A DNA stretch of 45,326 nt from a virus (IMGVR_UViG_2778261532_000009:1-45326), one strand, 5' to 3'; positions 7,901-10,900 are shown, counted from the stretch's first letter. Numbers: made by a program.

Positions 7901-10900
7901 GGTGACCCGTTTTGTGTGGCTGCGCCAGTTCGAGCCTGGCTCGAACTCTTCGTCGGCCAACCGGCTGCTCGACCGGCTCGAATATCTGCAACGCATCGAT
8001 CTCCCCGAGGATCTGCTTGCCGGCGTTCCTGCCCATCGGGTGACTCGTCTGCGCAGGCAGGGTGAACGGTATTATGCCGACGGCATGCGCGATCTCCCGG
8101 AGGACAGGCGGCTTGCGATCTTGGCTGTTTGCGTCTCGGAATGGCAGGCGATGTTGGCCGACGCAGTGGTCGAAACCCACGACCGGATCGTCGGCCGTCT
8201 CTACCGTGCTTCGGAGCGTATTTGCCATGCAAAGGTCGCAGACGAAGCGGGGGTGGTGCGTGACACCCTGAAATCCTTCGCCGAGATCGGGGGCGCCCTG
8301 GTCGATGCACAGGATGATGGCCAGCCGCTGGGCGATGTCATCGCGAGTGGGTCAGGGTGGGACGGCTTAAAAACCCTTGTTGCAATGGCAACCAGGCTGA
8401 CCGCCACCATGGCCGACGATCCGCTCAATCATGTGCTCGACGGTTATCACCGCTTCCGCCGATACGCTCCACGCATGTTGCGCCTGCTCGATCTGCGAGC
8501 TGCGCCCGTTGCACTGCCGCTTCTGGAAGCGGTGACGGCCCTTCGTACCGGTTTGAACGATGCCGCGATGACCAGCTTCTTGCGGCCCAGCTCGAAATGG
8601 CATCGCCACCTTCGGGCCCAGAGGGCTGGCGACGCTCGCCTATGGGAGATCGCGGTGCTGTTCCATCTGCGCGATGCGTTCCGCTCCGGAGATGTCTGGC
8701 TTACTAGGTCCCGGCGCTATGGCGATCTGAAACACGCACTCGTTCCGGCACAATCCATCGCGGAAGGCGGTCGTCTCGCTGTGCCATTGCGGCCGGAGGA
8801 ATGGCTGGCAGACCGGCAAGCTCGCCTCGACATGCGGTTGCGCGAGCTTGGCCGTGCCGCTCGCGCAGGCACGATCCCGGGCGGGTCGATTGAAAACGGC
8901 GTTCTGCATATCGAGAAACTCGAAGCCGCCGCGCCGACAGGCGCCGAAGATCTGGTGCTCGATCTCTACAAGCAGATCCCGCCCACGCGCATCACCGATC
9001 TCCTGCTGGAGGTGGATGCGGCGACCGGCTTCACCGAAGCGTTCACCCATCTGCGCACAGGAGCACCCTGCGCTGACCGGATCGGGCTAATGAACGTTAT
9101 CTTGGCGGAAGGGATCAACCTCGGCTTGCGCAAAATGGCGGATGCGACAAACACCCACACCTTCTGGGAATTGATCCGCATTGGACGGTGGCATGTCGAG
9201 GGCGAAGCCTATGACCGGGCGCTGGCCATGGTGGTCGAGGCACAGGCAGCGTTACCCATGGCCCGGTTCTGGGGCATGGGCACGTCGGCTTCGAGCGACG
9301 GACAGTTCTTCGTCGCTACAGAGCAAGGTGAGGCCATGAACCTGGTCAACGCGAAATATGGCAATACCCCGGGCCTGAAAGCCTATAGCCACGTCTCCGA
9401 CCAATATGCGCCGTTCGCAACCCAGGTGATTCCTGCAACGGCAAGCGAAGCGCCTTACATCCTCGATGGCCTGCTGATGAACGATGCTGGACGCCATATC
9501 CGCGAGCAGTTCACCGACACGGGCGGCTTCACCGATCACGTCTTTGCCGCATGTGCCATTCTCGGCTACCGGTTCGCTCCGCGCATCCGCGACCTGCCAT
9601 CCAAACGGCTCTACGCGTTCAATCCGTCGGCCGCCCCGGCGCACCTGCGAGCGTTGATCGGCGGAAAGGTCAACCAAGCCATGATCGAGCGCAATTGGCC
9701 CGACATCCTGCGCATCGCCGCCACCATTGCTGCCGGGACCGTCGCGCCAAGCCAGATTCTGCGGAAACTCGCCTCCTATCCGCGGCAGAACGAGCTCGCG
9801 ACAGCCCTGCGGGAAGTCGGTCGCGTCGAGCGCACCCTGTTCATGATCGACTGGATTCTGGATGCCGAACTCCAACGGCGTGCCCAGATCGGGCTCAACA
9901 AAGGCGAAGCTCATCATGCGCTGAAGCGGGCAATCAGCTTCCACCGCCGCGGTGAAATCCGCGACCGTTCCGCCGAAGGCCAGCATTACCGCATCGCCGG
10001 CATGAATCTGCTCGCCGCCATCATCATCTTCTGGAACACCATGAAGCTCGGCGAGGTCGTTGCAAACCAGAAACGCGATGGAAAGCTGCTATCGCCCGAT
10101 CTCTTGGCCCATGTTTCGCCGCTCGGATGGGAACACATCAATCTCACCGGAGAATATCGCTGGCCAAAGCCTTAGCGTAGGATTCCGCCCCCTCCCGCAA
10201 ACGACCCCTATAATGGCAATGTGAATGTCTTCGTAGTTGACTAAAGCCACAACTCAATTATAACAATTAATTATAGCAATGGTGGCTATTTTATTTATCG
10301 CGAATCACATTTTTTCTCTTCAGTACCTGTGTGCTATACTCCTTCTTGATTGATTGGATGCGGAATACAAACCCGCTCTTTTGTGCAGCCTGGCTCCTTG
10401 CCAGGCTTTTTTTTATTTCATCATGGAAGCTGTTAACGCTTTGGACCTTGCTGAACTGATTGAGAGGACTTTGTCAACGTGCCCCAAAAATTCGCCAAAC
10501 TCAGACATCACTTTAGCAAAACCGCGCCGTGCTTCTTCCTCGGTGGCGTTCATCACGAAATGTTCAGCACTACGCATACTTTTGACAGGGAACGCAACGG
10601 ATATTGAGTCAATATCAGGCATCCTGTCGCTCAACTTTACAGTGACAATGACGGCTGGCGACTGAATATTAGTGCTTACAGACAGCACTACATATTTTCC
10701 GTCGATGTTGAAATCCTTTCTCATATGTCACCATAAATATCAATGAATTAGAGCAATCATTTACGCGTTAATGGCTAATCGCCATCTTCCAGCAGGCGCA
10801 CCATTGCCCCTGTTTCACTATCCAGGTTACGGATATAGTTCATGACAATATTTACGTTGGTCCAGCCACCAGCTTGCATGATCTCCGGTATTGAAACTCC

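What the first reader, a model, noticed from the sequence alone, without database searches (positions are those of the whole stretch)
10209..10290. C1-operator promoter left aimed into the transposon after its gene was cut off
An operator-like 17-mer (10264-10280) with a downstream TATAAT faces the Tn5393-like terminal repeat only 56 bp away, and no start codon intervenes. In P1 the gene beyond cre is operator-controlled, so the insertion probably separated that promoter from its gene. On loss of repression, transcription would run antisense into tnpA.
Basis: inference. Interest (0 to 1): 0.4.

Follow-up and report, generated by a model that had tools for sequence, protein, structure and literature searches.

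The report
P1 ref operator-promoter facing Tn5393
The flagged 17-mer is the P1-type repressor binding site and promoter that normally precede the phage ref gene, and a streptomycin-type transposon landed 56 bp downstream of the binding site; this is an ordinary insertion in a known variable spot, and the closest relatives suggest no gene was cut off.

Summary
Window 10264-10280 (- strand, ATTGCTATAATTAATTG) is the positional ortholog of P1 operator Oref. The TATAAT at 10262-10257 is the -10 of P2ref. The Tn5393-type terminal repeat ends at 10208, and no ATG lies between.

The transposon sits between P2ref and the hairpin-plus-T-run attenuator that follows this promoter in P1 and its relatives. 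It also splits the predicted second promoter, P1ref.

The nearest uninterrupted relatives are 99% identical and share the same promoter haplotype and c8 allele. They do not have ref beyond the attenuator. They have a convergent icd-antirepressor cassette, so the promoter was probably already without a gene. What the insertion removed is the terminator.

After loss of C1 repression, transcripts should therefore enter the terminal repeat antisense to tnpA. That is geometry and inference, not measurement. The operator also carries A at position 7, where every other operator-like site examined has C, so C1 binding here is unproven.

The other junction of the resistance region lies outside the contig, so loss and displacement of the downstream DNA cannot be told apart.

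The same junction occurs in at least five draft assemblies. The finding is ordinary and of low interest.

The parts
10264..10280 (-). C1-repressor operator, ortholog of P1 Oref (former Op1/Op2a): ATTGCTATAATTAATTG. Position 7 (window 10274) is A instead of the otherwise invariant C.
   Evidence: Aligns to P1 1962-1978, annotated as a protein_bind site for C1. Pattern and weight-matrix scans. Variant survey.
10257..10265 (-). Extended -10 element TGTTATAAT of promoter P2ref (hexamer at 10262-10257). The -35 position (10285-10280, CCACCA) matches the consensus at only 2 of 6 bases.
   Evidence: Corresponds to the P1 P2ref -10 at 1980-1985. Sequence read. The simple two-hexamer scan does not call it because the -35 is poor.
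10270..10278 (-). Second extended -10-like motif, TGCTATAAT, inside the operator. It was created by the C-to-A change at 10274.
   Evidence: Sequence, compared with P1 ATTGCTCTAAT. Function is inferred only.
10294..10300 (-). CGATAAA, the H-NS binding motif reported in the ref 5' regulatory region.
   Evidence: Motif and H-NS binding are described for P1 in PMC4713147. The same heptamer is present in the window.
10227..10241 (-). Conserved leader box GTCAACTACGAAGAC. It belongs to the remaining 42 nt or so of the ref leader.
   Evidence: Almost invariant across 76 P1-like loci of both downstream types.
10214..10219 (-). Retained -35 hexamer TTGCCA of the predicted promoter P1ref. Its -10 has been replaced by transposon DNA.
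   Evidence: P1 annotates P1ref at 2017-2044. Scan of P1. Window sequence.
10209..10213 (.). TATAA, the first 5 bp of backbone next to the transposon end. It is the presumed copy of a 5-bp target duplication, but the second copy is not in the window.
   Evidence: Uninterrupted relatives read ...CACGGAGTC|TATAATGGC.... Tn3-family elements make 5-bp duplications; the Tn2 in this window has GTATA on both sides.
10171..10208 (-). Outer 38 nt of the Tn5393-type terminal inverted repeat (GGGGTCGTTTGCGGGAGGGGGCGGAATCCTACGCTAAGG). The full repeat length was not determined here.
   Evidence: Homology to the P1-like backbone breaks at 10208|10209. No second copy lies in 1-10400.
7290..10175 (+). Tn3-family transposase gene tnpA (961 aa), convergent with P2ref.
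   Evidence: NCBIfam NF033527, 1022 bits. The exact protein is widespread.
6541..7164 (-). Resolvase gene tnpR (207 aa), divergent from tnpA.
   Evidence: Serine-recombinase family hits and Pfam Resolvase on the identical contig.
10413..10724 (-). c8 (lysogeny-establishment protein, 103 aa), the gene upstream of the operator.
   Evidence: Matches P1 c8 at 1518-1829. Cluster names.
12960..13811 (+). c1, the gene for the repressor that would act on the operator.
   Evidence: NCBIfam NF041318 phage_rep_C1, 610.9 bits against a cut-off of 500, full length.

Best explanation
The 17-mer and the TATAAT are the Oref operator and P2ref promoter of a P1-like phage-plasmid. In the lysogen, C1 (encoded at 12960-13811) would bind the operator. 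The operator overlaps the spacer and the TG of an extended -10 promoter, so binding would block RNA polymerase.

In P1 and in every uninterrupted relative, the transcript runs about 80 nt into a strong hairpin plus T-run, the ref attenuator. A Tn5393-type transposon inserted 42 bp downstream of the predicted transcript start. That point lies between the promoter and the attenuator, and inside the predicted second promoter P1ref.

In the closest relatives the DNA beyond the attenuator is not ref. It is the 3' end of a convergent icd-antirepressor cassette. The promoter was therefore most likely already a relic with no gene of its own, and the insertion removed its terminator rather than its gene.

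When C1 is inactivated, transcription would now cross the terminal repeat and run antisense into the 3' end of tnpA until Rho or a distant weak terminator stops it.

Shown: the identity of the operator and promoter, the exact insertion point, the loss of the attenuator, and the layout in relatives. Inferred: that C1 still binds this variant, that the promoter fires, and how far the transcripts run.
For: - Orthology to the annotated P1 Oref and P2ref.
- Operator-like sites are strongly enriched in the window, 7 against 0.15 expected. This site ranks 11th-12th of 90,620 positions.
- An intact C1 gene is present.
- ref is induced on C1 inactivation in P1 (PMC4713147).
- The attenuator hairpin GGCGGCC-N4-GGCCGCC plus T6-8 is called as a terminator in P1 (2046-2063) and in pRHB32-C05_4. 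It is present in 76 of 80 IMG/VR loci and folds with z = -2.3 and -3.4. The window has lost it.
- No - strand terminator-like site lies between 10250 and 8392.
- The nearest backbones, ETEC4073 plasmid 4 and pRHB32-C05_4, are 99.0% and 97.9% identical over about 3-3.8 kb, and ETEC4073 is 98.8% identical over 11.8 kb. Both are identical to the window over 10209-10330 and both carry KilAC antirepressor plus icd convergent with the promoter.
- 51 PLSDB plasmids have this antirepressor layout.
- The exact operator variant occurs only with the antirepressor layout in IMG/VR, 4 of 4 loci.
Against: - There are no expression or binding data for this element.
- The A at operator position 7 replaces a C that is invariant in about 20 other operator-like sites and in 63 of 63 ref-type orthologs. 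C1 control may therefore be weakened.
- The -35 is poor (2 of 6) and an H-NS motif lies just upstream, so the promoter may be weak or silenced.
- One plasmid, pLH10-b-1-B, combines the same promoter haplotype with a ref gene. One contig with an identical C8 protein is also ref-type (L093). A ref-carrying ancestor is therefore not excluded.
- The far junction of the resistance region is not in any sequence I could reach.
Confidence: 0.6

Rival explanations
1. The ancestor carried ref directly downstream, as in P1. The transposon separated ref from its C1-controlled promoter, or ref was deleted with it, so ref is now silent or lost.
For: - In P1, SJ46 and 63 of 80 IMG/VR P1-like loci, ref follows this promoter and attenuator.
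- pLH10-b-1-B has the window's exact promoter haplotype together with ref.
- L093 encodes an identical C8 protein and has ref.
Against: - The window's c8 allele and promoter haplotype together match the antirepressor-type plasmids: 9 differences over 10209-10800 against 58 for pLH10-b-1-B.
- L093 has the P1-type haplotype at the operator; its match to the window stops at 10227.
- 13 of 14 PLSDB plasmids with this haplotype are of the antirepressor type.
Confidence: 0.2
2. The operator is degenerate in this lineage. The C-to-A change at position 7 abolishes C1 binding and creates a second perfect extended -10 (TGCTATAAT). The promoter is then constitutive and sends antisense transcripts into the transposon end even in the lysogen.
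For: - C at position 7 is invariant in all other operator-like sites of the window and P1 and in all 63 ref-type Oref orthologs.
- A at position 7 is seen only where ref is absent, in 6 of 13 antirepressor-type loci, plus one PLSDB exception.
- P1's own site with A at position 7, at 1485-1501, is not annotated as an operator.
Against: - The weight-matrix score equals that of the P1 Oref, 17.7 bits, because position 13 is improved.
- No mutational data on position 7 were found.
- The loci that share A at position 7 are related to one another, so the association may reflect one event.
Confidence: 0.15
3. The motif is a chance AT-rich match with no relation to P1 regulation.
For: The region is AT-rich, and the two-hexamer promoter scan does not call it.
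Against: It is exactly collinear with the annotated P1 Oref and P2ref and is conserved across 76 loci. The pattern is found 7 times against 0.15 expected by chance.
Confidence: 0.01

Closest known systems
Phage P1 Oref / P2ref with the ref attenuator (P1 1957-2071)
   Same: Same position between c8 and the attenuator. The 17-bp operator overlaps an extended -10 promoter. The H-NS motif is the same, and the leader box is conserved.
   Different: Two operator substitutions: C to A at position 7 and G to A at position 13. The attenuator, the P1ref -10 and everything downstream are replaced by a transposon end. ref is not in the window.
Antirepressor-type P1-like plasmids (for example pRHB32-C05_4 NZ_CP057246 and ETEC4073 plasmid NZ_CP122664)
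   Same: Identical over 10209-10330 and 98-99% identical across the backbone. They share the operator variant and the c8 allele.
   Different: They are uninterrupted. Promoter, attenuator and convergent KilAC antirepressor plus icd follow one another, with no transposon.
Phage P7 with Tn3/Tn2 (blaTEM) in the ref region
   Same: A Tn3-family transposon sits downstream of the same Oref-controlled promoter, with its transposase gene convergent to ref transcription. The c8-mat spacer is described as an AT-rich insertion site in PMC6906374.
   Different: In P7 the insertion is at the 3' end of ref (P7 2619), about 600 bp further on. It extends Ref by 36 aa and leaves the promoter, attenuator and gene together.
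Tn5393 variants carrying IS1133 and Tn10/IS10 (Tn5393h, i, l)
   Same: tnpA and a divergent tnpR are followed by an IS3-family element that is interrupted by IS10. Such variants are listed in PMC10333595.
   Different: Only the tnpA end is in the window. strA-strB, the second terminal repeat and the rest of Tn10 are not visible. A Tn2 is additionally inserted in the IS10. The name Tn5393 rests on gene layout and my memory of the repeat sequence, not on a database name.

Membership tests
P1/P7 C1-controlled operator | 17-bp asymmetric site close to ATTGCTCTAATAAATTT | tested here: met
   14 of 17 matches. Zero mismatches to the relaxed core pattern. Weight-matrix score 17.7 bits, equal to P1 Oref, ranking 11th-12th of 90,620 window positions.
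P1/P7 C1-controlled operator | Same position as an operator annotated in P1 (Oref) | tested here: met
   Collinear alignment to P1 1962-1978.
P1/P7 C1-controlled operator | Conserved core GC(T/A)CTAAT with C at position 7 | tested here: not met
   The window has A at position 7 (10274). C is present in all other operator-like sites scanned and in 70 of 76 Oref orthologs.
P1/P7 C1-controlled operator | Cognate C1 repressor encoded by the same element | tested here: met
   c1 at 12960-13811, NF041318, 610.9 bits, full length.
P1/P7 C1-controlled operator | Binding by C1 protein and repression in vivo | not testable with these tools
   Needs a gel-shift or reporter assay.
Sigma-70 promoter P2ref | -10 hexamer, with or without the TG extension | tested here: met
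   TGTTATAAT at 10265-10257, orthologous to the P1 -10 at 1980-1985. TATAAT is kept in 73 of 76 loci.
Sigma-70 promoter P2ref | -35 hexamer close to TTGACA | tested here: not met
   CCACCA matches 2 of 6 bases; P1 CTATCA matches 3 of 6. The consensus scan does not call the promoter.
Sigma-70 promoter P2ref | Mapped transcript start and induction on loss of C1 | not testable with these tools
   Only P1 data exist: ref is induced after C1 inactivation (PMC4713147).
ref leader attenuator | GC-rich hairpin plus T-run about 55-80 nt downstream of P2ref | tested here: not met
   Present in P1 and relatives. Absent from the window, where the leader runs into the transposon repeat after 42 nt.
Tn5393 (Tn3 family) | Tn3-family DDE transposase and a divergent serine resolvase | tested here: met
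   NF033527, 1022 bits, 961 aa. A 207-aa resolvase-family protein is divergent from it.
Tn5393 (Tn3 family) | Two terminal inverted repeats flanked by a 5-bp target duplication | tested here: inconclusive
   One repeat ends at 10208 next to TATAA. No second repeat lies in 1-10400. The other end is outside the contig.
Tn5393 (Tn3 family) | strA-strB cargo, with IS1133 after tnpR in the original form | tested here: inconclusive
   An IS3-family element follows tnpR and is cut by IS10. strA-strB are not in the window. The layout agrees with variants described in PMC10333595.

The most novel reading that the evidence does not exclude
In the antirepressor-type lineage, the Oref-P2ref-attenuator unit survives without ref. 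That may be because it makes a short (about 85 nt) C1-controlled, terminated RNA that ends 2 nt from the stop codon of a convergent antirepressor gene. Such an RNA could act as a regulatory RNA or as a transcriptional roadblock for that second immunity module. The nearly invariant leader box GTCAACTACGAAGAC would be its functional core. In this window, Tn5393 has cut that RNA after about 42 nt and fused it to the transposon end. That would disable this control and also create repressor-dependent antisense transcription across a transposon terminus.
Probability: 0.08. Interest if true: 0.45.

Novelty: new member of a known kind. Interest (0 to 1): 0.15.

Why it matters
It matters little beyond correct annotation.

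- The site should be labelled as the Oref/P2ref ortholog, with the insertion point in the ref leader upstream of the attenuator.
- It adds one more case to the c8-ref-mat spacer as a landing site for Tn3-family resistance transposons in P1-like phage-plasmids. Other cases are P7, two IMG/VR contigs, and at least five draft assemblies that share this junction.
- If the promoter is active on induction, it would send untranslated antisense RNA across a transposon end during lytic growth. That could lower transposase expression or end activity, but it is a minor and untested effect.
- Operator decay (A at position 7) goes together with absence of ref. This is a small hint about how repressor sites erode once their gene is replaced.

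Tried and rejected
- Exact junction. I searched INPHARED phages, PLSDB, complete E. coli RefSeq genomes, IMG/VR, GTDB representatives and JGI metagenomes. No record holds it.
- Predicted opposite junction (...GGAGTCTATAA followed by a non-T base). I searched GTDB representatives, IMG/VR and JGI metagenomes and found nothing.
- Rest of the plasmid through the antirepressor protein of close relatives. The two proteins looked up came from other, uninterrupted plasmids. The exact protein of the nearest relatives was not among those returned, so this route was dropped.
- Primary papers. Lobocka 2004 and Windle 1988 are not held. The attenuator claim therefore rests on predicted structure and on the 1988 title as cited in PMC4713147.
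- New hybrid promoter from the retained P1ref -35 (TTGCCA) and transposon DNA. Rejected: no -10-like hexamer lies at 16-18 bp spacing (read).
- The 53-aa ORF at 10089-10250 (-). Rejected as a gene: it has a GTG at the predicted transcript 5' end, no ribosome-binding site, and runs through the terminal repeat.
- Conserved leader hairpin as evidence for an RNA element. The P1 5' hairpin is not maintained in the window haplotype; two pairs are broken without compensation. I make no structural claim.
- Rfam has no family at 10100-10450. The window's hits lie elsewhere.

Full report
**What the window is.** The segment from 10209 to the right end is a P1-like phage-plasmid, in reverse orientation to the P1 reference.
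- cre is at 10775-11806 (-), c8 at 10413-10724 (-), cra at 11814-12035 (-) and c1 at 12960-13811 (+).
- The segment 1-10208 is resistance-region DNA.
  - It holds a Tn3-family transposase of 961 aa (7290-10175, +) and a divergent resolvase (6541-7164, -).
  - An IS3-family element follows and is cut by an IS10 end (5396-5418; RNA-OUT at 5304-5373).
  - A complete Tn2-type element with blaTEM sits inside that IS10 (38-bp repeats at 128-165 and 5040-5077, GTATA on both sides).
- tnpA, tnpR, then an IS1133-like element interrupted by IS10/Tn10 is the layout described for Tn5393 variants h, i and l (PMC10333595). I could not confirm the name from a database.
- The window is 100% identical over 20 kb to contig NMAT01000033.1 of assembly GCA_002535605.1.

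- On the - strand, 10280-10264 reads ATTGCTATAATTAATTG.
- Window position x corresponds to P1 position 2015 + 10227 - x. The 17-mer therefore falls exactly on P1 1962-1978, annotated as the 'monovalent C1 controlled operator Oref; controls transcription of ref'.
- The next hexamer, TATAAT at 10262-10257, falls on the annotated -10 of P2ref. With the preceding TG it forms an extended -10 (TGTTATAAT), which explains how the promoter can work with a poor -35 (CCACCA here, CTATCA in P1).
- Operator-like sites are far more common in the window than chance allows, 7 against 0.15 expected. Under a weight matrix built from 14 other operators, this site scores 17.7 bits, the same as P1 Oref, and ranks 11th-12th of 90,620 positions.
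- Homology to uninterrupted relatives stops at 10208|10209, and from 10208 leftward the - strand reads GGGGTCGTTTGCGGGAGGGGG. The operator is 56 bp from the repeat and no ATG intervenes.

**Where the insertion falls.**
- In P1, and in 76 of 80 P1-like loci fetched from IMG/VR, the promoter is followed by a leader of about 80 nt. The leader ends in GGCGGCC-N4-GGCCGCC plus six to eight T.
- The terminator scan calls this hairpin in P1 (2046-2063) and in pRHB32-C05_4. The leaders fold better than shuffles, with z = -3.4 and -2.3.
- This must be the 'attenuator' named in the title of Windle, Laufer and Hays 1988 (reference 18 of PMC4713147). I could not read that paper.
- The transposon end lies 42 nt after the predicted start, upstream of this hairpin. 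It is also 5 nt after the -35 (TTGCCA, 10219-10214) of the predicted second promoter P1ref, whose -10 is therefore gone.
- The window leader has no comparable hairpin. The first terminator-like site on the - strand inside the transposon is a weak 5-bp stem at 8392-8379, 1.8 kb away.

- The closest uninterrupted backbones are ETEC4073 plasmid 4 and E. fergusonii pRHB32-C05_4. ETEC4073 is 98.8% identical over 11.8 kb and 99.0% over 3.8 kb. Both are identical to the window over 10209-10330.
- In both, the attenuator is followed not by ref but by the stop codon of a KilAC-domain antirepressor gene and an icd-like gene, transcribed towards the promoter. 51 PLSDB plasmids have this layout.
- The window's promoter region carries about 17 substitutions and a 5-nt indel relative to the P1/ref-type haplotype. 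All of these are shared with the antirepressor-type plasmids.
- Of 14 PLSDB plasmids with this haplotype, 13 are of the antirepressor type. In IMG/VR the exact operator variant is seen in 4 loci, all of the antirepressor type.
- The one exception, pLH10-b-1-B, joins this promoter haplotype to a ref gene. Its c8 differs from the window at about 58 positions over 10209-10800, against 9 for the antirepressor-type plasmids.
- I therefore put about 0.7-0.8 on an antirepressor-type ancestor, in which the promoter was already a relic, and about 0.2 on a ref-type ancestor.
- The far junction cannot be seen. The contig ends in IS10, and neither junction sequence is present in any collection I could scan.
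- If the element is a complete Tn5393 derivative carrying Tn10 and Tn2, the downstream DNA was simply moved about 20 kb away rather than deleted. That is inference.

**How it most likely works.**
- In the lysogen, C1 would bind 10264-10280 and occlude the extended -10. H-NS may add to silencing through the CGATAAA motif at 10300-10294, which PMC4713147 showed to be bound in P1.
- On induction, RNA polymerase would start near 10250 and transcribe 42 nt of native leader. It would then cross the terminal repeat and run antisense to the last part of tnpA.
- The RNA would be untranslated, so Rho is expected to stop it within some hundreds of nucleotides (established behaviour of E. coli Rho; inference here).
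- Possible effects are interference with tnpA expression and with use of that transposon end. Neither is shown.

**A caveat on the operator.**
- Position 7 is A (window 10274). All other operator-like sites in the window and in the first 50 kb of P1 have C there.
- So do all 63 ref-type orthologs and 7 of 13 antirepressor-type orthologs. A occurs only in 6 antirepressor-type loci and in pLH10-b-1-B.
- The change also creates a second perfect extended -10 (TGCTATAAT, 10278-10270).
- This could mean relaxed selection on the operator once ref was replaced, or a change that strengthens the promoter and weakens the operator. The loci concerned are related to one another, so this is a hint only.

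**Comparison with what is known.**
- The unit is a member of the P1 Oref/P2ref family by position and sequence, with one conserved core base not met.
- Insertion of Tn3-family elements in this neighbourhood is already known. P7 carries Tn3/Tn2 at the 3' end of ref, convergent with ref transcription. PMC6906374 describes the c8-mat interval as an AT-rich insertion site close to the P7 Tn2 site. Resistance genes in phage-plasmids are reported to sit in a few hot spots (PMC9600943).
- Two IMG/VR contigs have other Tn3-family repeats inserted about 95 bp upstream in the same spacer (L044, L078).
- The present junction is shared by at least five draft assemblies (L091, L094, L095, L098, L099). It marks a circulating lineage, not a one-off or an assembly artefact.

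**Verdict.**
- The operator-promoter identity and the geometry are right. The claim of a gene cut off is probably wrong for this lineage and cannot be settled from the contig. The loss of the attenuator was overlooked.
- This is an ordinary transposon insertion in a known variable spot of P1-like phage-plasmids, of low interest (0.15).

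Noticed in passing
window 10741-10757 (-): A canonical operator-like site, ATTGCTCTAATTCATTG, lies between the cre stop and the c8 start. P1 has a version with A at position 7 at 1485-1501, which is not annotated as an operator. 61 of 66 IMG/VR P1-like loci have C at position 7 here, so c8 may be C1-controlled in most relatives.
   Followed up: partly
window 13844-15524 (-): A second immI-like module lies between c1 and pacB. It has a C4 antisense RNA (15235-15322), an isrK-like RNA (15349-15426), an operator-like site (15501-15517) and a 372-aa KilAC/ANT antirepressor. It is about 91% identical in DNA to the icd-ant cassette that in uninterrupted relatives lies beyond the ref attenuator in inverted orientation. 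Those relatives therefore carry 1.3-kb inverted repeats around c1-cre-c8.
   Followed up: partly
window 1-5418: A Tn2-type blaTEM transposon (38-bp repeats at 128-165 and 5040-5077, GTATA duplication) is inserted in IS10 (RNA-OUT at 5304-5373, end at 5396-5418). That IS10 in turn cuts the IS3-family element next to tnpR. The contig ends inside IS10.
   Followed up: yes
L095 12351 and L099 4410 (corresponding to window 8374): Two other assemblies share the c8|Tn5393 junction. In them tnpA is interrupted at window position 8374 by an IS50/Tn5-type end (CTGACTCTTATACACAAGTAGCGTCC). The lineage has therefore kept rearranging.
   Followed up: partly
L044 about 3750 and L078 about 4415: Other Tn3-family terminal repeats (GGGGTTGTACGCC... 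and the Tn21-type GGGGTCGTCTCAGAAAACGG...) are inserted 3 bp apart, about 95 bp upstream of the window's site. They lie between the c8 hairpin and Oref, which points to a hot spot.
   Followed up: partly
window 10387-10407 (+): A hairpin plus T-run is oriented for + strand transcription, just past the c8 stop codon (10413-10415). It would stop read-out from tnpA, or from the antirepressor gene in relatives, before c8. On c8's own strand the hairpin has no T-run.
   Followed up: no
window 42790-42817: Two overlapping operator-like sites lie in opposite orientation: ATTACACTAATAAATTT on + and a perfect consensus ATTGCTCTAATAAATTT on -. They are next to a 754-aa ORF (42808-45072, -) and look like a bivalent C1 operator.
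   Followed up: no
window 40382-40454, 41982-42054, 42060-42132 (-): Three tRNA genes in the P1-like backbone.
   Followed up: no
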